Of a stretch of DNA of 62,139 bases, positions 266 to 54,215 are shown piece after piece. Origin of the DNA: a virus (Duplodnaviria > Caudoviricetes); IMG/VR virus record IMGVR_UViG_3300027976_000037, positions 1 to 62,139 of that record. One strand, written 5' to 3'. Position 1 is the stretch's first letter. Every line of letters starts with the position of its first letter. The position numbers were made by a program, and so were the translations under genes. A model generated the notes under the pieces. It did no database searches and was not told the origin of the DNA. It saw only the letters and a program-made list of their open reading frames with translations.

Positions 266-862
266 ATGAGCGTACGCACCGATAGAAACTTTAAATCATA
301 CGACGGAGTACAAGAAAACGTAAGCGACGTCACGCTGGACCCCGTGGCTCAAGGTTGGGGTGTATTTGTAGATGGAAAATTTGTCAAGCCGGATTGGTCC
401 GATACTTGTAAATTTTGGAAACGTAATAAATTGAAGTTCGAGAATTTCGTCATCATCCGTGGCGGCTTAGAAGATGTTGTTGATATCAACAACGACTGTG
501 TAGGAAACACTTTTTCGAAATTTGTTATCATGCAAGCTGGCGACACTTACGTATTAACCCTAAAAGGTGATACATCAAATAATACCTTGGAAGATTGGTT
601 GATTTACGGCAAGGGCGGCAAGACGGTTGACATCGAAATTGGCAACTGGTCATCATACAATTTTGGTCGCTGCACCGGCAACAAGTTTATTAACTGGCGG
701 CGCGAAGACGGTGAGCCAATTCGGTATGCTTACCGAATTGGTTGCAAACCAACATTCGTTCGCACCAACACCAAACACATTTGGTGGTTGAGTATTGGAC
801 TAACCTTCTACTGGTGGTTCAAGTTCGTAAAACATCGCGTCTTTAAGATTGCTGATAAGTGA
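266..862 (+). CDS. hypothetical protein (possible beta-helix-like region, hydrophobic C-terminus)
   Basis: Long ORF; ATG at 266 lies 6 nt after an ATATTTATA motif. Confidence 0.75.
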   Translation: MSVRTDRNFKSYDGVQENVSDVTLDPVAQGWGVFVDGKFVKPDWSDTCKFWKRNKLKFENFVIIRGGLEDVVDINNDCVGNTFSKFVIMQAGDTYVLTLKGDTSNNTLEDWLIYGKGGKTVDIEIGNWSSYNFGRCTGNKFINWRREDGEPIRYAYRIGCKPTFVRTNTKHIWWLSIGLTFYWWFKFVKHRVFKIADK

Positions 863-1020
863 ACTACCGACCCTCTAAAGAAGAGTCGGCTTCAACGTAA
901 CTTTTTATAGTATCGTTGGATTTTTTCCGCTTCATTGAATTCGGCTTGACAATCATCTTGCGAAGATCATCAGAGGTCAATTTCTCCACGGACTTAGATT
1001 CGGACGGTTCCCGTCCTATT
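839..1020 (-). ncRNA. TnpB omega/reRNA scaffold with guide (TTATCAGCAATCTTAAAGAC)
   Basis: Overlaps the tnpB 3' end and right-end hairpin; guide inferred as the flank just beyond TCAC; 5' boundary approximate. Confidence 0.65.
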
Positions 1021-2261
1021 TTATCTTTTGCCAATAAATTGACAAAAGCAAATTTCTTTATATTACCAGCGGCCAGAACATCTCGGTCATGGACTTTTCC
1101 ACAAGAACATTTCCACGTTCTATCGGATAGTTTTAGATTTTGATTGATCTTACCGCAAGAACACATTTTTGACGATGGTTCAAATCTTCCAATTGTCAGA
1201 AGATTGGTTCCATACCAATCGGATTTATAAGTTAGGAACGAAATGAATTGCCCCCAACCAACGTCTCCAATTGATTTGGATAACTTACGATTTTTCATCA
1301 TGTTTTTTATAGATAAGTCTTCGAGGCAGATCGTTTGGTTCTCACGAACTAACTTTGAACTTAATTTATGATGAAAATCTTTTCTACTATTAGAAATTTT
1401 TGCGTGGATATTAGAAACTCGTTTCTTCCACAATTCTCTCTTTTTTGACCCTAGTTTTTTCTTTGACAAAATTCGTTGCTTCTTGGACAACAGTTTTTCG
1501 TATTTTTTTAGAAGTTTTGGATTTGAATATTTGTTTCCGTTTGAATCCGTCACAAATGTTGAAATTCCAAGATCAATTCCAATTGAATTCTCCAATGTTG
1601 GAATTGATTTATCTTTTTTCTTTATTTTAGTTTCAACTCTCAATGATGCAAAATATTTCCCCCTTGAATTCTTGGATATAAAAATTGATCCAACTTCTCC
1701 AACAACTTTTCTGTGAAAAATACACTTGATTGGTTCTTTGATCTTTGGAATTGAAATATTTGATTTTGAATAATCCACATCAAATCCTTGTGGAATTTGA
1801 AACGATTTTTTAGATATATGTTTACTTTTGAAATTTGGATACTTAGCGATCTTCTTAAAAAATCTAGAAAATGCACTATCCAAATCCCACAGTGATTGTT
1901 GAACGGATTGTGAATTAACTTCCCTTAAAAACAAATATTTGGAGTGTTTAAGTTCCTTGACCATTTCCATTAATTTTGTAGCAGTTATAGATTTTCCGGT
2001 TTCTTGATAAGTCTTATTCTTTAATTCTAGTCCCAAATTGTAGACAAACCGACAACAACCAAAATGCTTCTCCAAAAGAATTTCTTGTTCTTTTGTTGGA
2101 TAAATTCTAAACTTATATCCTTTGATTATTGTGTCCACTATGATAAATAGCATAGACTTTACAAAACATTCAATTTTTTTGTAGAAAAGTGAATAATAAT
2201 TCAAATTTAGCACAATTCATCCCACCGACTAAAGATCGGTGGGCTTTCTTGTGTCATTTCG
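859..2261 (-). mobile_element. IS200/IS605-family (IS1341-like, tnpB-only) element
   Basis: Minus strand left end TTAC|N14-AAAG-CCCACCGATCTTTAGTCGGTGGG; right end GAAG-CCGACTCTTCTTTAGAGGGTCGG-TAGT-TCAC|; no tnpA in the window. Confidence 0.9.
864..2153 (-). CDS. tnpB: RNA-guided endonuclease TnpB
   Basis: N-terminal YKFRIYPT HTH, RuvC-I GIDLG, RuvC-II LEDL, Zn ribbon CSCG..CSCG, RuvC-III DRDVLAAGNI; start ATG 2153 or GTG 2138. Confidence 0.95.
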   Translation of the reverse strand: MLFIIVDTIIKGYKFRIYPTKEQEILLEKHFGCCRFVYNLGLELKNKTYQETGKSITATKLMEMVKELKHSKYLFLREVNSQSVQQSLWDLDSAFSRFFKKIAKYPNFKSKHISKKSFQIPQGFDVDYSKSNISIPKIKEPIKCIFHRKVVGEVGSIFISKNSRGKYFASLRVETKIKKKDKSIPTLENSIGIDLGISTFVTDSNGNKYSNPKLLKKYEKLLSKKQRILSKKKLGSKKRELWKKRVSNIHAKISNSRKDFHHKLSSKLVRENQTICLEDLSIKNMMKNRKLSKSIGDVGWGQFISFLTYKSDWYGTNLLTIGRFEPSSKMCSCGKINQNLKLSDRTWKCSCGKVHDRDVLAAGNIKKFAFVNLLAKDKIGREPSESKSVEKLTSDDLRKMIVKPNSMKRKKSNDTIKSYVEADSSLEGR

Positions 2262-2270
2262 GTAAAAAAC

Positions 2271-2346
2271 GGGTCGGTAGCTCAGTGGACATATCGGCAC
2301 TTTGTTAAAGTGATGTGCGTGGGTTCGAATCCCACCCGTCCCTCCA
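2271..2346 (+). tRNA. tRNA-Asn(GTT), atypical D-arm
   Basis: GGGTCGG/CCGTCCC acceptor, loop TTGTTAA, GTGGGTTCGAATCCCAC, CCA. Confidence 0.75.
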
Positions 2347-2365
2347 TTTTTAACCCAACACAACT

Positions 2366-2596
2366 ATGAGTAGAACAGAGCGAACAAAAGATTACTATTA
2401 TGATCCAGAACGTTCCCCATTGTGGAAACAAACAGCTGATAAAAAACACTGGTACAAACCCACTAAAGGTAAGTGGTTGGAAAGAATGCGTTCCGATAGC
2501 AGAGCCAATCATAGAAAAGCTATGGTCGGAATTGACGAAGACAATCAGATTGTTCTACCAGTAAGAAGAATGACCGATGAATGGAACTACAATTAA
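2366..2596 (+). CDS. hypothetical protein
   Basis: 76-aa ORF filling the gap between two tRNA genes. Confidence 0.65.
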   Translation: MSRTERTKDYYYDPERSPLWKQTADKKHWYKPTKGKWLERMRSDSRANHRKAMVGIDEDNQIVLPVRRMTDEWNYN

Positions 2597-2601
2597 TTTA
2601 C

Positions 2602-2743
2602 GGAAGCCTAGTTTAAGTAAAGAACACCAGCAAATACATGCTGGAGATACGTCGCGGGTAGTTTAATAAGTTGAGGAATACGTGCACTAAAACTCAATAC
2701 TGTTAACCCAGTCGCTAGGGTGAAATACCCGTGGCCTCCAGCA
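2602..2743 (+). ncRNA. tRNA-like RNA with 8-nt anticodon loop and ~60-nt insert before the T-arm
   Basis: GGAAGCC/GGCCTCC acceptor, GTTT/GAAC D-stem, CCAGC-AAATACAT-GCTGG arm, GGGT-GAAAT-ACCC T-like hairpin. Confidence 0.55.
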
Positions 2744-2755
2744 TTTAGAATACAA

Positions 2756-2831
2756 CAGAGTATAATGTAACCTGGTAGCATACTAGCCTCGGACGCTTTT
2801 AGTTTGGGTTCGAATCCCAATACTCTGACCA
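2756..2831 (+). tRNA. tRNA-Pro(CGG)
   Basis: CAGAGTA/TACTCTG acceptor, loop CTCGGAC, TTCGAAT, CCA. Confidence 0.85.
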
Positions 2832-2837
2832 ATTTAC

Positions 2838-2914
2838 GGTCCCATCTCCTAATGGTCATGGTACTTCGTCTACACCGAAGAATAATCTCAGTTCGACTCT
2901 GAGTGGGACTACCA
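2838..2914 (+). tRNA. tRNA-Val(TAC) with C33
   Basis: GGTCCCA/TGGGACT acceptor, CTTCG-TCTACAC-CGAAG arm, CCA. Confidence 0.75.
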
Positions 2915-2945
2915 TTTTTAAGTTGTATATACACTATTTATATAC

Positions 2946-3362
2946 ATGACATTGGAAGACATTGAAAAAGTACTGAACGATAATGGATTCAAGAAGGTGA
3001 AGAAAATCATTAGTGATTCCACTTATGCTCGTCCTACGTCGAATTACCTCAACGGAAAATATTATACATTTTACCGCGCTTGGCTGACCGAACACAATCT
3101 CAATCGATGGAAAGCCAAGTGGGATTGTGATAATTTCGCCGCAACGTATTATGTGTTTGCTCAGATGTGTCACTTCAAGTCTGAGCGGGAGGAACAAGGG
3201 ATTGCAGTCGGTATGCTCTTTTATCATCAGGCGAACGGTGGTGGTCATGTTATAAATCTGGTCATTACAGAAAAGGGATTGACGGCAATTGAGCCACAGA
3301 CCGGTGATGAAGTCAGACTCACTGATGGTGAGAAGTCCGGCGCTTCATTAATATACTTTTAA
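2946..3362 (+). CDS. papain/transglutaminase-like cysteine hydrolase
   Basis: WDCDNFA, GHVIN and IEPQ motifs (Cys-His-Glu type triad). Confidence 0.6.
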   Translation: MTLEDIEKVLNDNGFKKVKKIISDSTYARPTSNYLNGKYYTFYRAWLTEHNLNRWKAKWDCDNFAATYYVFAQMCHFKSEREEQGIAVGMLFYHQANGGGHVINLVITEKGLTAIEPQTGDEVRLTDGEKSGASLIYF

Positions 3363-3365
3363 AAT

Positions 3366-3491
3366 ATGAAATCGAAACTATTAATCCTACTCCTGTTTTT
3401 GCTCATGTTTGCCGGTGGTTGCGTTACGGCACCGCTCACGCCAGACACAGAATTTCCTACCCCTGATTATGTGGAGGATGTCGCACAATGA
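3366..3491 (+). CDS. small lipoprotein (41 aa)
   Basis: MKSKLLILLLFLLMFAGGC signal and lipobox, Pro-rich tail; stop overlaps the next ATG. Confidence 0.6.
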   Translation: MKSKLLILLLFLLMFAGGCVTAPLTPDTEFPTPDYVEDVAQ

Positions 3492-3772
3492 AAAAACAAA
3501 GACTTCGTGATAGTAAGAAGGTAATCGCCTTGGGCATTGCTTTACTCAATCTCAACATTATATTTTTGGTCAGTGTCTTTAAAAGCGCTGAGACTACTGT
3601 GGTCATTCAGATGATGACCGCGATTCTGTTTTTAGTTGGTATCTACACCGGTGTCCAAGGTGGCATTGATATGATACAATCAAATAAAATGGAAGTAGAA
3701 AAGTCGGATAAGACAGAAACAAAAATCACTAAAAACTATGAGCACAAGATGGACTACGTAGATGATAACTAA
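3488..3772 (+). CDS. two-TM membrane protein, holin-like
   Basis: Basic N-terminus, two hydrophobic helices, charged C-terminus. Confidence 0.55.
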   Translation: MKKQRLRDSKKVIALGIALLNLNIIFLVSVFKSAETTVVIQMMTAILFLVGIYTGVQGGIDMIQSNKMEVEKSDKTETKITKNYEHKMDYVDDN

Positions 3773-3956
3773 TTTCAGCATAGAAGAAGAGGTTCAATGT
3801 CTCTCATCAATCTCGTAGGGATTACACATGGTGTAGAAGTTCAAGGCCGCACACTGTGCTGAAAACAATTTTAGCGTCGGCGCTGGAAGCTGGGACTTCG
3901 AAAATCCCTAGTAGAAACGCACTTGTCCGAGGTCATATCAAGGTAGCTCTGTGTAA

Positions 3957-4334
3957 TGGTCCGGTTGGTATAAGGGACATTGGTGTGATAGTTCTTGGGA
4001 ACTCACGTGGGTGATGTATGCATTGGACGCTGGTACGAAATTCAAGCGAAACACAACGGGTTTTGATTATGAGTTTGGAGGAAAGCGATTGAAATATTAT
4101 CCAGATTTTGAATTGGATGATGTTGATTATTTAGAAATTAAGGGGTACAATTCTCCACAATAGGAGGCCAAAATGACGTGGTTTCCAAAAAAATTGTCGG
4201 TCGTGGGCCGAGAAGAAATCGCGCCGTTCATTGAATACGCAAAAAAGAAACACGGAAATAATTTTGTTAGTTTATACGAGGATAGCAAAGTCGCGAGGTG
4301 CGACCGCAACTTGGAAAGTTGTAGGAGCGGCTAA
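3957..4334 (+). pseudogene. 5'-truncated PD-(D/E)XK (TnsA-like) homing endonuclease
   Basis: Hand translation GWYKGHWCDSSWEL...YYPDF...YLEIKGY with in-frame TAG at 4161; no start codon. Confidence 0.8.
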
Positions 4335-4370
4335 ACACCGCTTGAGTTTCGAGTACTCTGTTTTCCGCCA
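4280..4370 (+). tRNA. tRNA-Ser(GGA), 8/4 fold
   Basis: GGATAGCA/TGTTTTCC acceptor, GTCGC/GCGAC D-stem, loop TTGGAAA, long variable arm, G73, CCA. Confidence 0.85.
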
Positions 4371-4374
4371 TTTC

Positions 4375-4521
4375 TGAGGTAGTAGTTTAGTGGGAAAAAC
4401 GCTGATGATAGCAATACGAAAATACGCGTGAAACTTTCTTCATAAGGGGTCAATCCGCCGAGCATAGTTATAAGCCTTGAATACGATATCAGATACGGGA
4501 TTCGATTTCCCCGCCTCGACA
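4375..4521 (+). ncRNA. tRNA-like RNA with ~80-nt insert in the anticodon loop
   Basis: TGAGGT/GCCTCG acceptor, GTTT-AGTGGGAA-AAAC D-arm, CTGAT...ATCAG stem, GGGA-TTCGATT-TCCC T-arm. Confidence 0.55.
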
Positions 4522-4549
4522 ATTTTTACTTGGGTGCCTAATTAGTACC

Positions 4550-4680
4550 CGGAACCCCGGACATCATATGAGAGATAAGAATCCTCCACAAAATGGTGCC
4601 ACGTTAATGTGTGTTGAGTATGCCAAGCAATCTTGTGGTTGCCGCAGAGGGGCCGCCCAACGTGGAAGATACGGGTTCCG
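4550..4680 (+). ncRNA. unclassified structured RNA
   Basis: Closing helix CGGAACCC/GGGTTCCG; internal CATCAT/ATGGTG, CCACGTT/AACGTGG and GCAATC/GGTTGC stems; strand assumed from neighbours. Confidence 0.5.
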
Positions 4681-4686
4681 AATTTT

Positions 4687-4779
4687 GGAAGATTAATCAG
4701 CAAGGCGCTGAACTTGTTTGCTAAACAATGGGCTCGGTGTAAAAAGCCGGGTGGGCTTCGATTGCTCAGTCTTCCGCCA
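4687..4779 (+). tRNA. tRNA-Ser(GCT), 8/4-compatible
   Basis: GGAAGATT/AGTCTTCC acceptor, TCAGC/GCTGA D-stem, loop TTGCTAA, long variable arm, GCCA. Confidence 0.9.
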
Positions 4780-4785
4780 CTTTTT

Positions 4786-4875
4786 GGAAGATAAATTTGC
4801 CGGGGCGCAAACCGTGTCTTGAAAACACGTGGGCGGTGATGAGCCGCTAGGGTTCGAGACCTTTGTCTTCCGCCA
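4786..4875 (+). tRNA. tRNA-Ser(TGA), 8/4 fold
   Basis: GGAAGATA/TGTCTTCC acceptor, CGTGT-CTTGAAA-ACACG arm, long variable arm, GCCA. Confidence 0.9.
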
Positions 4876-4925
4876 CTTTATAATGTTGACAACGACCAAA
4901 TTTATGTCATAGTGAATGAAAATCT

Positions 4926-5234
4926 ATGAAAAAACTATTCGCTCTGTTGCTACTTGTATCAGTCACCGCTCTTGTCGGTTGTGTTGGTTGGACTTTACCT
5001 CAACTCGCTACTTCCGACGACGTAAGCGAGATTCGTGTAATCTTGTCAGAGCAAGGATACGTCCTTGCCGGAAACGTGGTCGAATTTTATGCATCGTCGT
5101 TTGCCCGTACCGACATAGTGTATGCCAAGGCTTACTTTCACGGGTCGATTGGGTTTGTTGTCATAAACAAAAGCAACAACCCTCCCACTGTCTCATGGTC
5201 GGCCACCAGAGATTTTAGGGTAGTCGAGGAATAA
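4926..5234 (+). CDS. lipoprotein of unknown function
   Basis: MKKLFALLLLVSVTALVGC lipobox; TTGACA at 4886 upstream. Confidence 0.75.
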   Translation: MKKLFALLLLVSVTALVGCVGWTLPQLATSDDVSEIRVILSEQGYVLAGNVVEFYASSFARTDIVYAKAYFHGSIGFVVINKSNNPPTVSWSATRDFRVVEE

Positions 5235-5240
5235 TTTTTT

Positions 5241-5454
5241 GGGCTTGTAACTCAGTTGATAGGGTATTTCGAGTGAAGAAAAATCCAAAAATATGGAGAC
5301 CAAATTGAATACTTTTGTAGAATATTACACGGGCCATGGAATTGCATAGAGTGATTGTTTCGCTGGCAGCGAAAATACAGATGGGAGCATTACCCATATG
5401 GTCCACCAATTTAGCCACCGAAGAAGTTGGGTTCGAATCCCACCCGGTCCACCA
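5241..5454 (+). tRNA. interrupted tRNA-Ala-like gene (outer shell of a nested pair)
   Basis: 5' half GGGCTTGTAACTCAGTTGATAGGGTATTTCG; 3' half CGAAGAAGTTGGGTTCGAATCCCACCCGGTCCACCA; G3-U70 pair; anticodon replaced by ~145 nt. Confidence 0.6.
5331..5408 (+). tRNA. tRNA-Ala(GGC), atypical T-loop
   Basis: GGGCCAT/ATGGTCC acceptor with G3-U70, TTTCG-CTGGCAG-CGAAA arm, ATGGG-AGCATTA-CCCAT, ACCA. Confidence 0.75.
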
Positions 5455-5546
5455 TTTACGGGCCTGTTGGCGCAAAAATTCTACGGTAACTCAGTTCGAT
5501 TCTGGGCGGGGGATCCATTTTCTTTATTATATTTAATATTTATAGA

Positions 5547-6221
5547 GTGATGATGAATGAAACATTTAACCCACAGTCGGTAACTTTTGAAGAAGTTCCG
5601 AGAGCCAAAGTTCGTGAGTTTATTCAGACTCACTACTTGGGTTCGTTTCCAGCCGTTTCATTGGCTTATGTTGGAATACTATACAACCAAAATTTAATCG
5701 GCGTTGTAATCTACGGAAGGACGTCAGCGCCTTCAGTTCAAAAATCAATTTTTAAACCAGATGTAAATGTGGATAATAAAGATATCTTGGAATTACAACG
5801 ACTTTTCATCATAGACGATGAAACACTTCTACCAAAAGAGGATAGAAAGAATCTTGCCGGTTTTTCAATATCACACGCAAACGATTTTGTAGTGAAGAAG
5901 TTTCCAAACGTTAAAGTTATCTTATCTTATTCAGACCCAGACCACCATCTAGGAACGGTTTATAAAGCAACTAATGCAATTTACCAAGGTCGAGGTGATA
6001 AGGTTCGCATGTTTAAAAGAGCTGATGGGAAGCTTATTAGAACAAATCGAGTTCAACCTGAAGAAAAGGGAGAGTTGGTATCCATGACAGGAAAAGACCG
6101 ATGGGTTTATCCCGTTGGCTCCACTTCACAGAAGAAGTGGGTTAAACGTAATTTAATCGACAGTGAACTGCAAGAGCTGATAACAATATCAGAAGCTCTT
6201 TGGAAACAATTTTGTGGTTAA
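5547..6221 (+). CDS. mom: Mom-like (GNAT-fold) DNA adenine-modification protein
   Basis: FIQTHY, ELQRLF and LSYSDPDHHLGTVYKATNAIYQG motifs. Confidence 0.75.
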   Translation: MMMNETFNPQSVTFEEVPRAKVREFIQTHYLGSFPAVSLAYVGILYNQNLIGVVIYGRTSAPSVQKSIFKPDVNVDNKDILELQRLFIIDDETLLPKEDRKNLAGFSISHANDFVVKKFPNVKVILSYSDPDHHLGTVYKATNAIYQGRGDKVRMFKRADGKLIRTNRVQPEEKGELVSMTGKDRWVYPVGSTSQKKWVKRNLIDSELQELITISEALWKQFCG

Positions 6222-6288
6222 GCTAAAGTAGACGAAGCCCACCATTGTATGATGGAGAAAGTTGGTGAAAGTCCAGCAACCGCGACCA
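6213..6288 (+). tRNA. tRNA-like gene with 8-nt anticodon loop (identity unclear)
   Basis: TGTGGTT/AACCGCG acceptor, CCA-TTGTATGA-TGG arm, GTTGG-TGAAAGT-CCAGC T-arm, ACCA. Confidence 0.55.
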
Positions 6289-6396
6289 ATTTATTCTTAT
6301 TAACTTGCCTACAATGTGGATATACGAGCGTCACGCTCAAACCGGGCAGAATCAATGGAAACGTTGAGAGTCCTCATTATAAAAATAAGAAAAACT

Positions 6397-6472
6397 GGGA
6401 CAGTAGTGAAATTGGATATCACCTTGCTCTACGAAAGCAATATTTTGGGTTCGAATCCCGACCGTCCCACCA
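6397..6472 (+). tRNA. tRNA-Arg(ACG)
   Basis: TTGCT-CTACGAA-AGCAA arm, canonical D and T arms, CCA. Confidence 0.9.
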
Positions 6473-6534
6473 CTTGAGCACGCGTAGTCGTGAAAATCGG
6501 GTGTAAACCGACGTGCTATAAAAATATCGGATTC

Positions 6535-6610
6535 GGCTCTTTAGCTCAACGATCAGAGCAGAGGACTCATAATCCTTTGGTTGTGGGTTTGAATCCCACA
6601 GGAGCCACCA
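6535..6610 (+). tRNA. tRNA-CAT (Ile2 or Met)
   Basis: GAGGA-CTCATAA-TCCTT arm, canonical cloverleaf, CCA. Confidence 0.9.
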
Positions 6611-6670
6611 ATTTGCCGTCGAAGTTCATATGGGTGAACGTCATATTAAAAATTACTTTTCATAAAACAT

Positions 6671-6755
6671 GCCTAGTTGGCTCAGTGGCAACAGCACCGC
6701 TTTCGTAAAGCGGCGAAGAAATTCTCCGTGGGTTCGAGTCCCACACTAGGCTCCA
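6671..6755 (+). tRNA. tRNA-Thr(CGT) with extended variable region
   Basis: GCCTAGT/ACTAGGC acceptor, CCGCT-TTCGTAA-AGCGG arm, 14-nt variable region, TCCA. Confidence 0.85.
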
Positions 6756-7150
6756 TTTTTTACTGAATATTTCCTATATCGTTTCCCCTTTGTTTTGTTA
6801 AATCCACGATGTGTGGACGTCAGGGAATGACAATTTGGACAAAGCGCAGTCAGGTTACTTTCTTGTGAATTGGACGCGTCACCATCAACGTGGTCGATTT
6901 CTAAACACGGTCTATTTGAAACGGGATGTCGCTCACCCCAACCACATTTAGAACATCTGTTATCAAATTTTTCTAATACGTAGTCCCGAACGACGGGATT
7001 TAGTACTAGCGCGACACCTCGATGGCCGGGGTTTAGCCCCTGTTTCCACTGCTCTATACTAATCTGTTTTCGGTGTGTTCACTGACAAACTGCGGAACAG
7101 TATTTGCGCCGATTTTGGATTTCTTTACCACATATGAGACAATTTTTCAT
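6746..7150 (-). pseudogene. HNH endonuclease with one in-frame TGA
   Basis: Hand translation MKNCLICG...CSAVCQ*THRK...CSKCGW...LEIDHVDGDASNSQESNLTALCPNCH; TGA at codon 24 (7079-7081). Confidence 0.85.
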
Positions 7151-7200
7151 ACATATAACTATATCTCATGTTAGCCTAACATGTGTTAGCACATAATAAT

Positions 7201-7315
7201 TTACACAGGCCAAACAGAGTTGCATCTGGTGGTCGTAAACCTAGAGGCCCGGTTAAGAGCCAAGCGTACATGCAATCGCTGGTAAACTCGGGGACGAAGA
7301 CTGCGGTCTGTGTGA
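7201..7315 (+). ncRNA. unclassified structured RNA
   Basis: 11-bp closing helix TTACACAGGCC/GGTCTGTGTGA with internal GTTGCAT/ATGCAAT stem. Confidence 0.5.
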
Positions 7316-7318
7316 TAT

Positions 7319-7394
7319 TGCCTTGTAGCGTAATGGTTATCGCAACTCTCTCTGAAAGAGTGGACTGAAGGTTCGAGTCCTTCCGAGGCAGCCA
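7319..7394 (+). tRNA. tRNA-Gln(CTG)
   Basis: TGCCTTG/CGAGGCA acceptor, ACTCT-CTCTGAA-AGAGT arm, GCCA. Confidence 0.9.
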
Positions 7395-7462
7395 ATTTAG
7401 TTGTTGACATTTTATAAACGACAGTTCATTATGAACTCTTGTTATTTGACATATAAATTTAC

Positions 7463-7554
7463 GGACATGTGGTGTAATGTAGCACCGCTAGTTTTATAAA
7501 CTAGGCGCACCCGATAGGTGCCGAGTGTGGGTTCAAGTCCCTCCATGTCTACCA
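7463..7554 (+). tRNA. tRNA with UAU anticodon (nominal Ile) and long variable arm
   Basis: GGACATG/CATGTCT acceptor, CTAGT-TTTATAA-ACTAG arm, GCACC-CGATA-GGTGC variable stem, ACCA. Confidence 0.85.
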
Positions 7555-7556
7555 AT

Positions 7557-7890
7557 TTTCAGAGTATGTGACCTTACGCGGGGCGAAAGTAAAACCTCGA
7601 GGAAGTTCGCTGCTGCTTAACTCGATGCTGGAAGAGCAATGCTGAATCGATGACAGTCATAGTGTCTGAGTCCAAATCAGAAGGGTCTATGGATCTCAAT
7701 CCTCAAGCGGTTCGTTATTACCACAAATCCGCAGTAACCTAAAAATCCTAGAGTATGTGAGTTATACGTTAATATAGGAAGGTCGGGGCCTCTTCTTGAA
7801 AAAGGAAGAACGGAATTTATTCCGTAGAGAAATGTAAGGTCAGGAGCTGAAAGGCTCTGGACAGAACAGCGGCTATAGCATATTTTGAAA
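7557..7890 (+). ncRNA. rnpB: RNase P RNA (divergent)
   Basis: P1 TTTCAGAGTATGT/GCATATTTTGAAA; CR-I-like GAGGAAGTTCGCTGC; CR-V-like ACAGAACAGCGGCTATA; complementary P4 strands. Confidence 0.8.
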
Positions 7891-7950
7891 ACATTTTAAA
7901 TATTAAGGTTTCGTTTGAAAGAAATCGTTAGTTCGAATATACTCATATAC

Positions 7951-8262
7951 ATGAAGTGTGAAAAATGTAATAATCAACACGATGGAAAATATGGTAGTGG
8001 AAGATTTTGCTCTTGTGAATGTGCTCGTTCTTTTTCAACCACAATTAAACGAGAAGAAATAAAAGTCGTGATTCTGTGGAATGGGAATTGGCATCGAAAA
8101 AAATTAATGAGAAAACATAGTGTAAAGCAGGTAAAGAACAGAGACAAAATTAAAATTTCGGAAATATTGAAAGCGGGTTATGCTGCGTACGTAATTGATG
8201 ATTATAGAAAATTCAATCGAAAGTTTGTAGAATCCGAATTTAACAAATTTATGGTGGGTTAG
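7951..8262 (+). pseudogene. internally deleted homing endonuclease remnant
   Basis: CEKC...GSGRFCSCECARSF Zn-finger joined directly to a WNGNWH...RDKIK..I...GY nuclease-type tail; catalytic core appears missing. Confidence 0.55.
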
Positions 8263-8327
8263 TTTATGTGGTAAAACTCTGGTTTCATAAGCCAAGATAG
8301 CGGATTCAAACGCCGCACTCACTTCCA
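8253..8327 (+). tRNA. tRNA-Met(CAT)
   Basis: GGTGGGT/ACTCACT acceptor, TGGT-TTCATAA-GCCA arm, CCA. Confidence 0.75.
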
Positions 8328-8342
8328 ATTTATAATAGATAT

Positions 8343-8418
8343 GCCTTGTAAGTTCTGATGGCGGAACAGGTTCTTGGTAAGAACACGGTGGCCAGTTCGA
8401 TTCTGACACAAGGCTCCA
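8343..8418 (+). tRNA. tRNA-Thr(GGT)
   Basis: GCCTTGT/ACAAGGC acceptor, GTTC-TTGGTAA-GAAC arm, TCCA. Confidence 0.85.
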
Positions 8419-8621
8419 CTATACGCTCGCCTGATAACTGGCATTGAGGTACTGATAAAACATGAATAACAATGAAAACTGCTCACACCAATCGCAGAAA
8501 GCAACAAGTGGCCAAGTTAAATAAAGGTTGGTGTGACAGTTGCGACCGGATTATTCGATGATAATCATTGATGCTTGTGTGGCACATCATCCAGTCTCGC
8601 TGAAAATCTAACAAACAATCT

Positions 8622-8707
8622 CCTCACATGGCGTAATGGTAGCCGCAGAGGTCTTAAAAACCTTTGGTAAATATACCGTGCCGGTTCGACTCCGGCTGTG
8701 AGGACCA
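8622..8707 (+). tRNA. tRNA-Leu(TAA)
   Basis: CCTCACA/TGTGAGG acceptor, GAGGT-CTTAAAA-ACCTT arm, long variable arm, ACCA. Confidence 0.9.
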
Positions 8708-8712
8708 CTTCT

Positions 8713-8797
8713 GGGCATGTGGATAAGGCAAGTTGGTACAACCGTCCGACTCAAAATCTTCTATCCTATATGGGTTTGAGTCCCTTCATGCCTACCA
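8713..8797 (+). tRNA. degenerate tRNA-Leu(CAA)
   Basis: GGGCATG/CATGCCT acceptor, GA-CTCAAAA-TC weak anticodon stem, ACCA. Confidence 0.5.
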
Positions 8798-8868
8798 CGC
8801 ATCCCTTGGAAGGGTGTCGAAAGACCTCATCCAAGCCCCTCAACCCGTTTGGGCTGAGGTCATTTTAT

Positions 8869-8944
8869 GGGAGACTGGCGCAACGGTTAGCGCAGCTCGT
8901 TTACACCGAGAAGGTTCACGGTTCGAATCCGTGGTTTCCCACCA
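8869..8944 (+). tRNA. tRNA-Val(TAC)
   Basis: Canonical cloverleaf, CTCG-TTTACAC-CGAG arm, CCA. Confidence 0.92.
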
Positions 8945-9213
8945 TTTAACCCACAAACTAGGAGTAAGAAAATATGACACAACTAAACGCAAGACAATAA
9001 AAATAACCGATAAGCATAGACAAGACTATAAATTGTATGAAAAATTTTCAACCATGACTATTATGTGGCCATGTAATGAAACAACTGACCCAGATGGGTA
9101 TTCGCCAATTGAGTGTTTTGTTTATAACAAAAAACTCAATTTTTCACGTCTTTAATGTTTTTCGGTGATATATATAGACTTAGAGACAACTCAAATTTAA
9201 CCCACCAAACATT

Positions 9214-9528
9214 ATGGAAATCGTACAAACAGTCATCGGCCTATTAGTAGTAGGAGCAGTTGCATTCTTCATCTGGAAGAACATGAAAAAGGCAGAAGCA
9301 ACAACACCAACACCGGGTCCATTCGTTCCTCCGGGTCCAGCACCAACACCGACGGGCGGCACATCAGTTTATGACGTGTTCTCACCGGGCGGAGTCCAAG
9401 GTGATGTCACCTATTATAACGCAGCTGGTCAGCAAGTCACTGATATCATCACACCTCCTTCAATCCGCATCATCGCACAAGACGGTATGCCAATCGACGG
9501 TAATTATGGTATCATCAACAAACTGTAA
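9214..9528 (+). CDS. membrane-anchored protein with Pro/Thr-rich linker
   Basis: N-terminal TM helix, TPTPGPFVPPGPAPTPT linker. Confidence 0.75.
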   Translation: MEIVQTVIGLLVVGAVAFFIWKNMKKAEATTPTPGPFVPPGPAPTPTGGTSVYDVFSPGGVQGDVTYYNAAGQQVTDIITPPSIRIIAQDGMPIDGNYGIINKL

Positions 9529-9551
9529 TTGACTATTCAAGTTTAATTCTC

Positions 9552-9582
9552 AAATCCCATACCAAAAGGTGTGGGATTTTTT
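9552..9582 (+). terminator. intrinsic terminator
   Basis: AAATCCCATACC-AAAA-GGTGTGGGATTT followed by T tract. Confidence 0.7.
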
Positions 9583-9584
9583 GT

Positions 9585-9659
9585 GGACCTGTGGTGAAAC
9601 GGATATCACCTTGCGCTTCGAACGCAAAGTTCTGGGTTCGATTCCCAGCGGGTCTACCA
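9585..9659 (+). tRNA. tRNA-Arg(TCG)
   Basis: TTGCG-CTTCGAA-CGCAA arm, canonical fold, CCA. Confidence 0.92.
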
Positions 9660-9721
9660 CTATGAATGACGAAGAAAAATTATTAAAACAAATATTTGGA
9701 GAAAAATCAAATGCTCTTTAC

Positions 9722-9770
9722 GACTCCGTTAGCAGAAAGCCCACCGATCTTTAGTCGGTGGGATGAATGC
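9722..9770 (+). mobile_element. orphan IS200/IS605 left end
   Basis: TTAC|N14-AAAG-CCCACCGATCTTTAGTCGGTGGGATGAAT; hairpin identical to the left end of the 859-2261 element. Confidence 0.85.
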
Positions 9771-9963
9771 GTTAGCCCTGATTCTATGTGAAATTGATTG
9801 GAACACGGTATATAAAAAAGGAATTTTTTGTGAAAATGACTTGGACATGTTCTCAGAGTTAAAAAAAATAGTACAAGCGAATGAGGTTGATGATGAAAGA
9901 TATTATCGGTGAGGCTCATTCTAAGGAGGGAAGGCCATCCTCCGACGGATGATTCTCCGCATT

Positions 9964-10054
9964 GGAAGATTAACCAAGCAGGGTCTTGGAACTGTTTCGA
10001 AAACAGATTGCTCGGTGAAAGCCGAGTGGGCTTCGATTGCTCAGTCTTCCGCCA
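9964..10054 (+). tRNA. tRNA-Ser(CGA), 8/4-compatible
   Basis: GGAAGATT/AGTCTTCC acceptor, CTGT-TTCGAAA-ACAG arm, long variable arm; 3' end identical to tRNA-Ser(GCT). Confidence 0.9.
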
Positions 10055-10164
10055 TTTGGGATAACCGCTACAATGATCGGTATTTAGGTCTTATACCAAG
10101 GAATCATGACCTAGTAAATGTAAATCCTGTCCCAATTAATTTCCCCAATTCTAAAAAGAAATGT

Positions 10165-10210
10165 TTGACAACCAACTGATAGTGTGTATAGTTGGTGATG
10201 TTCTTTAACA
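10165..10210 (+). promoter_or_regulatory. sigma70-like promoter followed by boxA-like element
   Basis: TTGACA-N16-TATAGT, then TGTTCTTTAACA at 10199-10210. Confidence 0.65.
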
Positions 10211-10211
10211 C

Positions 10212-10382
10212 TTTGAAGTTAGTTCAGTTCAAGATTATGTCGTGAAAACCCGGTAGGCTTACAGAATCGATCATTCTGGCCAAAAGGAAAGTAATTTAGC
10301 GAGAACGCAGGATTTGGAAAAGACTGTCCAAACCATCAGACATTGCGACACCCCCAAGTTAAAAGGGTGGATTAACTTCAAA
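10212..10382 (+). ncRNA. unclassified ~170-nt structured RNA
   Basis: Closing helix TTTGAAGTTAGTTCA/TGGATTAACTTCAAA; TGTCGTGA/TTGCGACA, CAGAAT/ATTCTG and TTTGGA/TCCAAA stems; no convincing ORF. Confidence 0.6.
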
Positions 10383-10385
10383 TAT

Positions 10386-10457
10386 GCGGTTTTAGTGTAT
10401 TGTAGCACGGTGGGCCTCCAGTCCATAGGATCCGGTCATTCCGAGAAAACCGCTCCA
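10386..10457 (+). tRNA. divergent tRNA-Gly(TCC)
   Basis: GCGGTTT/AAACCGC acceptor, U73, GTGGG-CCTCCAG-TCCAT arm; degenerate T-arm. Confidence 0.6.
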
Positions 10458-10459
10458 TC

Positions 10460-10532
10460 TGCAGGATGGTGTAATGGTAGCACGCCACGCTCATAATGTG
10501 GAGATGAAGTTCGACTCTTTCTCCTGCACCCA
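10460..10532 (+). tRNA. tRNA-Met(CAT)
   Basis: TGCAGGA/TCCTGCA acceptor, CCACG-CTCATAA-TGTGG arm, CCA. Confidence 0.85.
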
Positions 10533-10579
10533 ACATGTTTCCAACTGGTCAACTAAAATTACTAGAAGAAAAATATCAC

Positions 10580-10705
10580 GTGAATTACCGTCCCTCTAAA
10601 GAAGGGACGGCTTCTCTGTCTGTGACAGAGGATTTTCCGCGTTTCATAGACTTCGTATCCCTCGCAGATTGCTCTGCTACTCTTCCGAACGCCTCACCGC
10701 TTGAT
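10580..10705 (-). mobile_element. orphan IS200/IS605 right end with omega-RNA-like scaffold
   Basis: Minus strand TCTATGAAACGCGGAAAATCC...GAAG-CCGTCCCTTCTTTAGAGGGACGG-TAAT-TCAC|; no adjacent tnpB; 5' boundary approximate. Confidence 0.75.
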
Positions 10706-10780
10706 AGTTGTATTAAAGAGGATATGGTTAAGAACCAAGCTAGGTTAGCTAAAAACCATACATCGTAAAATTAGGAAAGT

Positions 10781-10813
10781 GGGAGCGAAGATTGAATTCT
10801 TCGCTCTTTTTTT
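10781..10813 (+). terminator. intrinsic terminator
   Basis: GAGCGAAGA/TCTTCGCTC stem followed by T7. Confidence 0.75.
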
Positions 10814-10884
10814 ATGCCTTTCGCCAAACACGTATATAAACAAAAAAACGTATTTTACGAATGAGATTATATTTATAAGAACCT

Positions 10885-11217: not shown

Positions 11218-11218
11218 T

Positions 11219-11875: not shown

Positions 11876-12064
11876 TTTTGACAAGATTTTTGTCAAAAAT
11901 GAACAGCCGGTAAATTGATGCAGGATATTGAAAAGAAAACTGACGACAATCGGGCACTTATTTTAAGTAAATAATAGTTGACTGATACCCAAAGTAGTGT
12001 ATATTTATAGTTGTTCTTAATAGTTCTTCAACCCACGGGTCTAGGACTCTAAAGTAAGGATAAC

Positions 12065-12888: not shown

Positions 12889-12982
12889 GAACGCAGAGAA
12901 TGCCACCTTCACGTTGGTTGCGTTTGAGTAACGCCAAGAGCATTCACATTTTACAGTTGTTGTTTTCATATCTACAAGTAGT

Positions 12983-13030: not shown

Positions 13031-13037
13031 AATATTA

Positions 13038-51462: not shown

Positions 51463-51464
51463 TT

Positions 51465-52280: not shown

Positions 52281-52282
52281 CC

Positions 52283-52660: not shown

Positions 52661-52690
52661 CTTTAAGTGTTGGTGTAGTATAATAAGACC

Positions 52691-53647
52691 ATGCGTATAT
52701 TAGTATTAAGCGATATTCATCATCGGTGGGTTCGAGCACAATCTCTGATTGACACAGTTCCTCACGATAAAGTTGTTCTGTTGGGCGATTATTTCGACCA
52801 ATTCAATGATAACATACATGATGCGCATAACACTGCCACGTGGTTAAAGGATATGGTTATACCCAATCCAAACATTGTTCAGTTGATTGGAAATCATGAC
52901 CAATATTATTTCTGGCATTGGTATCCACATTTTCGCGGCAGTGGATATTCTGATGCCAAACGTGATGCCATCAGATCGGTCCTACAACAAGACCACGTTA
53001 AACAGTTTAAATTTTTCCACATCGAAGAAAACATCGTGTTTAGTCACGCTGGAATCAGTGGTGCTCTTTGGAAAGAAATTGCTAAATACAACATCATTGA
53101 CAAAACGACGAACCTTGAGAACTTTTCAACGGTTATGACGGAAATGGTTGCCAAGAATTTAGAATGTGTTGATTTGCTTAGGCCTGCCCCCCTATTTATG
53201 GCCGGGTGGGATCGAGGTGGCACTCAACGGCACGGCGGACTTACGTGGAGTTGCTGGTCAAGCTTTGGTCCCGTCAAGGGAATTAATCAGGTGGTCGGGC
53301 ATACCCCACATTATATCCCAGAATTTCTTGTTCAGAGTGATTCTGGCTCAATTAAGAAATATTCTGCCGAAAAATTTAATTCTGAGCGGTTTTTTGGAAA
53401 TAAAAAAGTCACGAGCATAAACCTAGCTCTCGACACTCATTCAGAACACTATGCCATTGTTGAGGATGGTAGGATTGAAATCTACGATGCAAATACTAGG
53501 CTCACTATTAAAGAAATGATTGAGAAGGGTATTCCATTCTCAGAGAAACAACAGGCTGTGATTAATCCTCACCTTGCCGAAAAGTTTAGGCAGGATGCCA
53601 TCGAAGAAGCGAAAAAGAAATCGAATTACTACCGATTGAAGGGATAG
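52691..53647 (+). CDS. calcineurin-like metallophosphoesterase
   Basis: SDIH, GDYFD, GNHD, SHAG and VGHT motifs; TTGACT-N16-TATAAT ends 6 nt before ATG. Confidence 0.9.
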   Translation: MRILVLSDIHHRWVRAQSLIDTVPHDKVVLLGDYFDQFNDNIHDAHNTATWLKDMVIPNPNIVQLIGNHDQYYFWHWYPHFRGSGYSDAKRDAIRSVLQQDHVKQFKFFHIEENIVFSHAGISGALWKEIAKYNIIDKTTNLENFSTVMTEMVAKNLECVDLLRPAPLFMAGWDRGGTQRHGGLTWSCWSSFGPVKGINQVVGHTPHYIPEFLVQSDSGSIKKYSAEKFNSERFFGNKKVTSINLALDTHSEHYAIVEDGRIEIYDANTRLTIKEMIEKGIPFSEKQQAVINPHLAEKFRQDAIEEAKKKSNYYRLKG

Positions 53648-53693
53648 GCTGGCCCACGGGGCTTTCACGTCTGAGACTTGATATTTATAGGGT

Positions 53694-53870
53694 ATGTTTG
53701 AAAAGACATATCTTATAACTGTGTACGAAGCCGATACTCCAAACGTCGTGCTCACATTTACGATTGGTGGTATCAGTATGAGGCGAATCAACGGCTACAC
53801 CCTCTCAATTGATGGAAAGTTAATGACGTTCGACCCAGCTACCTATGTTGACTTTTCTCAACAAAACTAA
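53694..53870 (+). CDS. small hypothetical protein
   Basis: 58-aa ORF after ATATTTATA at 53681. Confidence 0.55.
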   Translation: MFEKTYLITVYEADTPNVVLTFTIGGISMRRINGYTLSIDGKLMTFDPATYVDFSQQN

Positions 53871-53888
53871 GGCATCCTCTTTACTACC

Positions 53889-54215
53889 GTCAATTACCGT
53901 CCCTCTAAAGAAGGGACGGCTTGACGTTGATTGACTGTCTCAACATCATATGGTCCATTGACACGGACCTGCCCATCGAGTGCTTTGCAACACGAGTTGG
54001 GGTGTTTGGAGTATTTTTGGAGAATGTTAATTGCCGCATTTATGTCTGCGTCAAGCACAACTCCATCACTCGCGATATACCTGCAACCTTGTCTTATTCC
54101 ACCAACTAAACCTCTATGGTCTAGTTGGTTTGTGTAAGCTGGGTTAACTGTTGCAACTTTTTTTCCATAAAGTTGTGCCTTGTATGTTAATATGGTTCTA
54201 ACCGCAAAAAACGGT
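53889..54215 (-). pseudogene. tnpB: 5'-truncated tnpB with intact right end
   Basis: Hand translation PFFAVRTILTYKAQLYGKKVATVNPAYT.Q...DADINAAINI...SLEGR*; end CAAG-hairpin-TAAT-TGAC|. Confidence 0.85.

What the first reader, a model, noticed from the sequence alone, without database searches (positions are those of the whole stretch)
839..54215. One intact TnpB with three dispersed right-end/omega-RNA modules carrying different guides
Seen: three minus-strand right ends share the hairpin CCGWCYCTTCTTTAGAGGGWCGG and end at 859, 10580 and 53889. Each is followed by a different flank: TTATCAGCAATCTTAAAGAC, GTGATATTTTTCTTCTAGTA and GGTAGTAAAGAGGATGCCTT. Only the first has a full tnpB, and there is no tnpA in the window. 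Known: the TnpB guide is the flank just beyond the right end. Inference: both decayed copies kept the RNA-coding end, so they may supply extra guides in trans, giving a distributed multi-guide nuclease aimed at sibling phages that lack these insertions. Neutral decay is the alternative.
Basis: partly seen in the sequence, partly recalled or inferred. Interest (0 to 1): 0.8.

Follow-up and report, generated by a model that had tools for sequence, protein, structure and literature searches.

The report
Phage TnpB transposon plus truncated copies
A fragment of a large freshwater phage carries one intact RNA-guided TnpB transposon and leftover ends of at least two other, different TnpB transposons, which look like recent truncated copies and not a proven multi-guide weapon.

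Summary
The hairpin occurs 3 times, all on the minus strand, against 0 expected. The ends at 859, 10580 and 53889 and the three flanks read as stated. Only copy 1 has a whole tnpB, and the window has no Y1 tnpA.

Copy 1 (859-2261) is an IS200/IS605-type tnpB-only element with IS608-like ends and TTAC at its left flank.

The other two are not decayed siblings of copy 1; they come from different lineages:
- Copy 2 is a 121-nt scaffold that lacks the 5' stem.
- Copy 3 is about 312 nt from a TnpB only 29% identical to the resident one.

Metagenome contigs hold the same modules at 100% identity beside other flanks, including whole parent elements. So these are recent truncations in a community where such elements turn over quickly.

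Use of the orphans as guides in trans stays untested. The scaffolds are foreign to the resident TnpB, no promoter-like site was found, and no second target was found. The idea is already in print for gene-less PATE elements.

Interest is moderate.

The parts
859..2261 (-). Element 1: complete IS200/IS605-family tnpB-only element (left end, tnpB, omega-RNA region, right end)
   Evidence: Left and right hairpins lie on the same strand. TnpB domains found. A contig of the independent run X4 bridges the right-end junction (578-1124, 0 differences).
2262..2265 (-). TTAC flank of the left end (candidate TAM / TnpA target site). It overlaps the stop codon of ORF 245-862.
   Evidence: Read. With the element the ORF ends AAG TGA. 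After precise excision it would end AAG TAA (my reading).
2221..2243 (-). Left-end hairpin CCCACCGATCTTTAGTCGGTGGG, preceded by AAAG and placed 18 nt after TTAC
864..2153 (-). tnpB-1 ORF (429 aa). The TnpB core runs to about residue 374 (about nt 1032). The remainder is a frame that reads on through the omega-RNA-coding region.
859..1045 (-). Type-1 omega-RNA scaffold region: promoter-like TTGTCA-16-TAAAAT at 1045-1018, stem-loop GGACGGGAACCGTCC at 1016-1002, right-end hairpin 867-889, tail TAGTTCAC
839..858 (-). Flank of copy 1 (the guide, if the RNA runs on as in known TnpB systems). It is antisense to the last codons of ORF 245-862.
9718..9768 (+). Orphan left end: TTAC, 18-nt linker ending AAAG, hairpin 9740-9762, then ATGAAT
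   Evidence: 35/35 identical to 2249-2215 of element 1. No right end lies on the plus strand.
10580..10700 (-). Copy 2: orphan type-2 scaffold, 121 nt, hairpin 10588-10610, tail TAATTCAC. It lacks the 5' stem-loop.
   Evidence: 10576-10700 is 99.2% identical (125 nt) to L033 11433-11557. I place the single mismatch in the flank. Homology stops at 10700.
10560..10579 (-). Flank of copy 2, between the right end and tRNA-Met (10460-10532, plus strand)
53889..54200 (-). Copy 3: orphan type-3 module, i.e. the C-terminal TNB/RuvC-III fragment of a TnpB-3-type gene plus its scaffold. Hairpin 53897-53919, tail TAATTGAC.
   Evidence: TNB domain found. 53889-54104 is 216/216 identical to L031/L034. 54105-54200 is only about 55-70% identical, and nothing aligns beyond.
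53869..53888 (-). Flank of copy 3

Best explanation
The window is a piece of a large freshwater phage with a tRNA array. IS200/IS605-family tnpB-only elements have invaded it repeatedly. All of them use the same IS608-like end hairpins, so they are presumably moved by one Y1 TnpA that is not in the window.

Element 1 (859-2261) is whole. By analogy with studied TnpB elements, its RNA would run from the 3' part of tnpB through the right end into the flank and guide TnpB-1 to TTAC-flanked sites that lack the element. The cut would then be repaired by copying the element back in, which is homing.

Copy 2, copy 3 and the orphan left end are young, immobile truncation products of other element lineages (types 2 and 3). 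They are most likely by-products of fast gain and loss and not guides adapted to TnpB-1.

Shown: the anatomy, the separate lineages, the identity to copies elsewhere, and the lack of partner ends. Inferred: transcription, homing, and the way the truncations arose.
For: 1. Element 1 is complete. It has the three TnpB domains. The RuvC motifs GIDLG, LEDL and HDRD are kept in alignment with close relatives and in the printed alignment to a solved TnpB-like nuclease (9yyg); the ISDra2 TnpB structures match over residues 11-374. Left and right hairpins lie on one strand.

2. The ends behave like TnpA sites. The right-end hairpin has 9 pairs, 100% of cells paired in 5 distinct sequences, and 5 pairs with changes on both sides; 0 of 500 shuffles reached this. 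The four bases 5' of the hairpin co-vary with the cleavage site: GAAG/TCAC (copy 1, copy 2, L030), CAAG/TGAC (copy 3), GAAT/TCAA (L004), and AAAG/TTAC at left ends (read). So the conserved 35-nt core is explained by transposase recognition alone.

3. The lineages differ. Copies share only the end core. TnpB-3 is 29% identical to TnpB-1. Type 2 shares the helix layout of type 1 but little sequence.

4. The copies are young and turn over. A metagenome scan with the right-end pattern gave 6 loci:
- Type 3 is 216/216 identical to a whole element in L031 (390-aa TnpB, same left hairpin) that has another flank.
- Type 2 is 121/121 identical to an orphan in L033 with another flank.
- A type-1-like orphan in L033 is 196/196 identical to the 3' end of the tnpB element in L030.
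- L032 keeps only 29 nt.

5. The orphans cannot move. No left hairpin lies on the minus strand upstream of copy 2 or copy 3, and no right end lies on the plus strand for the orphan left end.

6. An orphan left end exists that codes no guide.

7. No sigma-70-like site lies on the minus strand upstream of copies 2 and 3, while copy 1 has TTGTCA-16-TAAAAT just before its first stem.
Against: - Right-end remnants outnumber left-end remnants. The count is 2 to 1 in the window and 5 to 1 with the metagenome loci, but those loci were found with a right-end pattern, so that count is biased.
- All remnants are short. 4 of 5 right-end remnants keep the whole 3' scaffold (121, about 312, at least 121, and 196 nt of roughly 1400-nt elements). 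Single random deletions would not be expected to give this, though repeated deletions would.
- None of the orphans shows point-mutation decay. Each is 100% identical to another copy.
- In L033 both orphans lie on the same strand as the tRNA array, 4 and about 44 nt or less behind a tRNA. They would be transcribed and freed by tRNA processing.
- Copy 3 has a sharp switch from 100% to about 60% identity at 54104/54105. That points to exchange of right-end modules between elements, not simple decay.
- The rest of the genome (about 80%) is unseen and could hold cognate TnpBs.
Confidence: 0.6

Rival explanations
1. Trans-guide or non-autonomous homing cassettes. The orphan right-end modules are transcribed and loaded onto a TnpB made elsewhere in the phage. 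They direct cuts at TTAC-flanked copies of their own flanks in co-infecting relatives that lack them. This drives their own spread and excludes rival markers.
For: - The scaffolds are intact and carry no point mutations.
- Type 2 has the same helix order as type 1: closing helix, inner hairpin, A-rich GGAAAATCC linker, short stem, GAAG, end hairpin, tail.
- In L033 two orphans sit directly behind tRNAs on the same strand.
- L031, L033 and L034 overlap as parts of one phage with a whole TnpB-3 and a tRNA array. Their tRNA set is nearly complementary to the window's, and loose ends matching them are read in the runs that hold the window (L033's form in X1 and X4, L031's left end in X2). They may therefore be the same or a co-infecting genome that could supply TnpB-3 to copy 3.
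- The principle is in print for PATEs (Meers et al. preprint, passage seen). TnpA-independent homing into plasmids or co-infecting phages is in print too (review PMC13565253, passages seen).
Against: - The orphans in each contig are of other types than the whole TnpB seen beside them. The window has TnpB-1 with types 2 and 3; the second phage has TnpB-3 with types 2 and 1-like.
- No whole TnpB cognate to type 2 was found anywhere.
- Window copy 2 lacks the 5' stem.
- The window orphans are antisense to all neighbouring genes and have no promoter-like site.
- Homing copies an element only to the same site, so it cannot explain identical type-2 modules at two unrelated sites.
- No TTAC-plus-guide target was found.
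Confidence: 0.2
2. Assembly artefact. The orphan junctions are mis-joins of a short-read metagenome assembly inside repeats shared by several loci (121 nt for type 2, 216 nt for type 3). If so, copy 2 or copy 3 are really parts of fuller elements with other neighbours.
For: - The Logan unitigs break exactly at the repeat edges: 2220-2244, 9739-9763, 10584-10632 and 10603-10700.
- The type-2 unitig has about 3 times the depth of its neighbours (284 against 87-93 in X1, 117 against 30-33 in X2, 60 against 20-22 in X3).
- At 10700 a second continuation, the L033 form, is read in X1 and X4.
- The L034 locus, and with it that contig, ends exactly where the 216-nt identity to the window ends.
Against: - The diverged stretch 54105-54200 and the breakpoint at 10700 are real sequences that differ from L031 and L033. 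Truncated or mosaic copies therefore exist however the flanks are paired.
- A metallophosphatase and the ligase, the genes on either side of copy 3, are also neighbours in 3 of the 17 related loci examined (L011, L022, L023).
- The L033 pairing was assembled twice, in two data sets.
Confidence: 0.1
3. Co-opted hairpins. The conserved end cores are kept because they serve the phage as transcription terminators or RNA-processing sites at the edge of the tRNA operon, or as recombination hotspots. On this view they are kept neither as guides nor as transposon ends.
For: - On the plus strand the copy 2 hairpin lies 56 nt after tRNA-Met and is flagged terminator-like, although its T-run is weak.
- The remnants cluster in or beside tRNA arrays.
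Against: - A much better terminator lies 170 nt further on, at 10781-10808.
- Copy 3 is nowhere near the tRNAs.
- The co-variation between cleavage site and guide tetranucleotide points to TnpA and not to termination.
Confidence: 0.05

Closest known systems
IS608 / ISHp608-type IS200/IS605 elements (Y1 TnpA, 'peel and paste'), and tnpB-only relatives of the IS1341 type
   Same: - Subterminal hairpins at both ends on one strand.
- Left flank TTAC, with AAAG directly 5' of the left hairpin.
- The right end is cut a few bases after the hairpin at TCAC, TGAC or TCAA, and this site co-varies with the four bases 5' of the hairpin.
   Different: - No tnpA in the window.
- The element sits in a phage and not in a bacterial chromosome.
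- The left cleavage site lies 18 nt from the hairpin.
ISDra2 TnpB with its omega-RNA (reRNA)
   Same: - TnpB-1 residues 11-374 align to the solved ISDra2 TnpB (8h1j, 8bf8; E about 4e-56).
- The 3' end of the ORF overlaps a structured region that ends at the right end.
- That the guide is the flank is recalled from Karvelis 2021 and Altae-Tran 2021, which were not read here.
   Different: - The candidate TAM is TTAC, not ISDra2's TTGAT (recalled).
- The scaffold sequence is unrelated.
- Neither the RNA nor cleavage has been shown here.
PATE-like gene-less IS605 derivatives whose omega-RNAs need a TnpB in trans (Meers et al., preprint 10.1101/2023.03.14.532601; passages seen)
   Same: Modules without a gene that keep the omega-RNA-coding right end, in a genome that also holds a whole tnpB element with the same ends.
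   Different: PATEs keep both ends and can still be moved by TnpA. The orphans here have only one end, so they are immobile remnants.
Free-standing homing endonucleases in phage tRNA regions (T4 SegB), and 'transposon non-restorative homing' (review PMC13565253; passages seen)
   Same: Selfish nuclease genes in the tRNA gene region of a large phage, expected to cut co-infecting relatives that lack them.
   Different: Recognition here would be by RNA guide, not by protein. No co-infection data exist for this phage.

Membership tests
IS200/IS605-family tnpB-only element (element 1) | TnpB with HTH, split RuvC (OrfB_IS605) and zinc-finger TNB domains | tested here: met
   Pfam E-values 8e-21, 1.1e-26 and 1.2e-18, all over the cut-offs. 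Aligns to ISDra2 TnpB structures.
IS200/IS605-family tnpB-only element (element 1) | RuvC catalytic D, E, D kept (nuclease-active type) | tested here: met
   GIDLG, LEDL and HDRD stand in conserved columns with close relatives and with a solved TnpB-like nuclease. Activity itself was not tested.
IS200/IS605-family tnpB-only element (element 1) | Subterminal hairpins at the left and right end on the same strand | tested here: met
   Left hairpin 2243-2221 and right hairpin 889-867, both on the minus strand. The right hairpin is supported by changes on both sides in 5 of 9 pairs.
IS200/IS605-family tnpB-only element (element 1) | Insertion 3' of a short target motif without target duplication, shown by an empty site | tested here: inconclusive
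   TTAC flanks both left ends and no duplication is seen. No empty site was found in the viral contigs or in the 4 runs laid.
IS200/IS605-family autonomous element | Y1 (HUH) TnpA gene | tested here: not met
   PF01797 gives 0 matches at E<=1 in the 62-kb record. The record is about 20% of the genome.
TnpB-omega-RNA guide module (copies 2 and 3 as working guides) | Scaffold cognate to a TnpB encoded in the same genome | tested here: not met
   Within the window only. Type 2 and type 3 differ from type 1 outside the 35-nt core. TnpB-3 is 29% identical to TnpB-1. The unseen part of the genome could change this.
TnpB-omega-RNA guide module (copies 2 and 3 as working guides) | Transcription and processing into an RNA that carries the flank | not testable with these tools
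   No RNA data could be laid on the window. The promoter scan found no site, but the host's promoter type is unknown.
PATE (palindrome-associated transposable element) | Both a left and a right end on one strand, with no gene between | tested here: not met
   No left hairpin lies upstream of copy 2 or copy 3 on the minus strand. The orphan left end is on the other strand.
TldR (nuclease-dead TnpB-like repressor with guide) | Loss of RuvC catalytic residues, with the guide aimed at a promoter | tested here: not met
   TnpB-1 keeps the motifs. The family is known to me from a search listing only (PMC10705468).
CRISPR-like guide array | Tandem repeat-spacer units | tested here: not met
   The three modules lie about 9.7 kb and 43 kb apart, with genes between them.

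The most novel reading that the evidence does not exclude
Right-end-only omega-RNA cassettes are kept in the tRNA regions of large phages as extra guides. In the second phage they are transcribed with the tRNA operon and released by tRNA processing. They are loaded in trans onto phage-borne TnpBs, including a TnpB-3 in the same or a co-infecting genome. This would give a natural, dispersed multi-guide TnpB system for phage-against-phage homing and marker exclusion. It would also be a living example of guides becoming separate from their transposon, a step on the road from TnpB to CRISPR-Cas12.
Probability: 0.12. Interest if true: 0.8.

Novelty: new member of a known kind. Interest (0 to 1): 0.42.

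Why it matters
TnpB elements are the ancestors of Cas12. It is still open how their guides came loose from the transposon end, and what they do in phages.

This locus offers a compact natural test set. It holds one intact phage-borne TnpB, three scaffold lineages with identical transposase-recognition cores, and one-ended remnants that are 100% identical to whole elements in the same water samples.

If the remnants are only debris, the locus documents fast gain and truncation of IS605-family elements in the tRNA regions of large phages. That is ordinary, but a useful calibration for similar claims.

If the remnants are loaded in trans, it would be the first natural dispersed multi-guide TnpB system. 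I cannot claim priority: my two literature searches were shallow, listing 25 of 2,209 and 15 of 124 hits.

Tried and rejected
- **Close relatives and empty sites.** Viral-contig scans with TnpB-1 gave 7 loci, the best at 56% identity. The ligase gave 17 loci, the best at 57%. ORF 245-859 gave none. The phages collection gave no match by megablast. So no near relative was available to show an empty or occupied homologous site.
- **Right-end pattern.** 0 hits in viral contigs, 0 in genome contigs and 6 loci in metagenome contigs.
- **TnpB-1 in genome contigs.** 222 pattern hits, none confirmed. No host was identified.
- **The three 20-nt guides in viral contigs.**
  - Guide 1 gave one hit (L036). 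It is preceded by CCAA, not TTAC, and has no other similarity to the window, so I read it as chance.
  - Guides 2 and 3 gave none.
  - Within all held sequence, no second site matched the first 16 nt of a window guide with 2 or fewer mismatches, apart from one 2-mismatch site for guide 1 in L021, preceded by CAGG and not TTAC.
- **Rfam.** Only tRNAs and a tmRNA reached gathering score. In 9400-11000 at E<=1 there was no intron and no other informative family. A group-I-intron (IStron) reading of 9770-10380 therefore has no support.
- **Sequencing runs.** No RNA holder was listed, which says nothing about expression.
- **Reads laid on window 1-12000.** No contig joins 858 to 2262, so no empty site appeared in any of the 4 runs. 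Contigs drop rare variants, so this is not evidence of absence. The one listed joint (1127 to 1869) rests on a record with 7 differences in 55 nt, most likely another organism's tnpB.
- **Are L031, L033 and L034 the same genome as the window?** Tetranucleotide correlations are 0.77-0.81, but the unrelated L004 also reaches 0.80, so this is undecided. The records behind the metagenome loci are not held for the genome search.
- **Covariance model of the 3' 85 positions.** It recovers only its own training sequences and their copies, L032, and weak hits on left-end hairpins. There are no further right ends in the window or in the 26 loci searched. A full-length scaffold model was not built because MAFFT misaligned the 5' parts.
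- **Copy 2 as a PATE.** I considered that copy 2 might be bounded by the TTTTAC near 10767, and that TTAC at 54293-54296 might mark the old left flank of copy 3. Both were rejected as evidence, because TTAC is too common and no left hairpin follows.
- **Inversion.** I considered that the orphan left end and copy 2 might be two ends of one inverted element. No arrangement restores a proper element.
- **Supplementary files** were not opened. The Extended Data and supplements of Meers et al. may hold details on omega-RNAs in PATEs that bear on the novelty claim.

Full report
**1. What the window is**

The window is a whole IMG/VR virus record of 62,139 bases with no end repeats. CheckV estimates it at about 20% complete, so it is a fragment of a large phage.
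- It carries 16 tRNA genes between 45 and 10532 and a tmRNA at 12490-12888, all on the plus strand.
- Of the 52 ORFs of 150 aa or more, 48 lie on the plus strand.
- The nearest relatives by DNA ligase lie on phage contigs of up to 369 kb and share at most 57% identity.

**2.

The hairpin pattern has three perfect matches, all on the minus strand, and none in 100 shuffles.

Only copy 1 has a whole tnpB:
- It is 429 aa with three Pfam domains.
- Residues 11-374 align to the ISDra2 TnpB structures.
- Residues 375-429 are a frame that stays open through the RNA-coding tail. This tail is conserved as 'protein' in relatives of 52-67% identity, which reflects a conserved RNA gene.

No Y1 transposase is present. 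The only other TnpB piece is the 115-aa fragment at copy 3.

**3. Anatomy of element 1**

On the minus strand the order is:
- TTAC (2265-2262);
- an 18-nt linker ending AAAG;
- the left hairpin (2243-2221);
- tnpB;
- a promoter-like TTGTCA-16-TAAAAT (1045-1018);
- a stem-loop (1016-1002) and further helices;
- GAAG, then the right hairpin (889-867);
- TAGTTCAC, ending at 859.

This is the IS608 layout as I recall it. The paper was not read here.

The element sits exactly at the stop codon of ORF 245-862. With the element the ORF ends AAG TGA; without it, AAG TAA. The insertion therefore costs the phage nothing (my reading).

A contig of an independent estuary run (X4, 2022) bridges the right-end junction without a difference, as do the three freshwater runs of 2017 that may be the source.

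**4. The ends are transposase sites**

In five distinct right ends (copy 1, L030, type 2, type 3, L004) all 9 hairpin pairs are kept. Five of them carry changes on both sides, and 0 of 500 shuffles reached this.

The four bases before the hairpin change together with the cleavage site:

| Ends | Bases 5' of hairpin | Cleavage site |
|---|---|---|
| Copy 1, copy 2, L030 (right) | GAAG | TCAC |
| Copy 3 (right) | CAAG | TGAC |
| L004 (right) | GAAT | TCAA |
| Left ends | AAAG | TTAC |

(read)

This is what TnpA recognition predicts. It explains why a 35-nt core is shared by otherwise unrelated modules, without any appeal to guide function.

**5. The orphans are other lineages, not decayed siblings**

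Outside the core the three copies barely align.

Copy 2:
- It is 121 nt long.
- It has the same helix order as type 1, but with other sequence.
- It lacks the first stem-loop, which a fuller copy of the same scaffold in L033 keeps.

Copy 3:
- It is the tail of a different TnpB lineage that lacks the zinc-finger cysteines in this stretch.
- Its whole form is in L031: 390 aa, TNB domain, 29% identity to TnpB-1, and the same left hairpin.

**6. A missed piece**

There is an orphan left end on the plus strand at 9718-9768. It has TTAC, an 18-nt linker and a hairpin, and is 35/35 identical to the left end of element 1. It has no partner right end. It carries no guide, so its presence fits plain decay.

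**7. The same modules elsewhere**

The right-end pattern found 6 metagenome loci.
- L031, L034/L035 and L033 overlap into one phage-like assembly. It holds 29 tRNAs, a whole type-3 element, a type-2 orphan and a type-1-like orphan.
  - The type-2 orphan (11433-11553, fuller upstream) lies just behind tRNA-Lys. Its flank is the start of ORF 11554.
  - The type-1-like orphan (12885-13080) lies 4 nt behind tRNA-His.
  - All three lie on the tRNA strand.
- Identities to the window or to whole elements are 121/121 (type 2), 216/216 (type 3) and 196/196 (type-1-like against L030). The flanks are unrelated.
- L032 keeps only 29 nt.
- In copy 3, identity drops from 100% to about 55-70% at 54104/54105 and ends near 54200. 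This is a mosaic boundary.
- The type-2 unitig has about 3 times the depth of its neighbours in three runs. The L033 continuation is read in X1 and in the independent X4.

**8. Reading**

One-ended, immobile remnants that are identical to copies at unrelated sites must each descend from a recent full insertion followed by loss of the 5' part, or from a copying process that stops early. This speaks for rapid turnover.

The whole TnpBs seen next to the orphans are of other types than the orphans (window: TnpB-1 with types 2 and 3; second phage: TnpB-3 with types 2 and 1-like). That is not what a co-adapted multi-guide system would look like.

Several points keep the trans-guide idea alive at about 0.2:
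- the remnants are short and rich in right ends;
- most keep a complete scaffold;
- in L033 they sit directly behind tRNAs;
- about 80% of the genome is unseen.

**9. Caveat**

The repeats (121 and 216 nt) are near or above short-read length, and the unitigs break at their edges. The pairing of flanks at copies 2 and 3 therefore needs long-read confirmation. The genes on either side of copy 3 are also neighbours in 3 of the 17 related loci, which argues against a gross chimera.

**10. Literature**
- Meers et al. (preprint; passages seen) state that PATEs often encode omega-RNAs that need TnpB in trans.
- A 2026 review (PMC13565253; passages seen) describes TnpA-independent 'non-restorative' homing into plasmids or co-infecting phages. 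It also cites T4 SegB homing in the tRNA region.
- The TldR and IStron papers were seen only in the search listing.
- Neither search (25 of 2,209 and 15 of 124 hits listed) showed a report of one-ended omega-RNA remnants in phage tRNA arrays. The searches were shallow.

**11. Verdict**

This is a new member of a known kind, of moderate interest, with a bolder reading that is cheap to test.

Noticed in passing
window 12490-12888 (+): A phage-borne tmRNA (Rfam 88.6 bits) with the unusual predicted tag AKRNLAKLTVLSLVRKNVNSAYAVAA. It lies just after the tRNA array.
   Followed up: no
window 10386-10454 (+): A sub-threshold tRNA-like match (25.5 bits against a cut-off of 29) directly before tRNA-Met. 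It may be a decayed tRNA.
   Followed up: no
window 9768-10380 (+): About 600 nt between the orphan left end and the tRNA-like stretch, GC-richer and with many short helices by eye. It has no Rfam or TnpB match. Its nature is unknown.
   Followed up: partly
window 9650-9706: Contigs in all four runs branch here, just after tRNA-Arg, with loose ends at 9650, 9671 and 9706. Bin depth is about twice that of the flanks. So this short stretch is repeated elsewhere in the community.
   Followed up: no
window 40819-41913 (-): One of the few minus-strand genes: an IMP dehydrogenase / GMP reductase family protein (Pfam E 2.2e-44).
   Followed up: no
window 54297-55454 (+) and 52691-53647 (+): An ATP-dependent DNA ligase and a calcineurin-like phosphoesterase flank copy 3. 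TTAC at 54293-54296 (minus strand) overlaps the ligase start codon.
   Followed up: partly
L030 1-9973: GC content jumps from about 29-44% to about 57-64% at about 6000, right at the 5' side of its tnpB, and no left hairpin of this family is there. It is either a chimeric metagenome contig or a junction with high-GC DNA.
   Followed up: partly
L033 9678-10340 (-): A 220-aa ORF on the opposite strand inside the tRNA array, with a weak restriction-endonuclease-like match (MTES_1575, E 2e-5, below the cut-off). It may be a free-standing homing nuclease.
   Followed up: no
L033 / L034 against the window tRNA array: The 29 tRNAs of L033 and the 16 of the window share only two anticodons (Asn-gtt, Arg-tcg). 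The sets are nearly complementary, as if they were two parts of one large tRNA region.
   Followed up: partly
window 10594-10602: In run X4 a minor variant of the right-end hairpin loop (one base put in, one left out) is carried by one contig at depth 12 of 123. This is a further variant of the repeat in the community.
   Followed up: no
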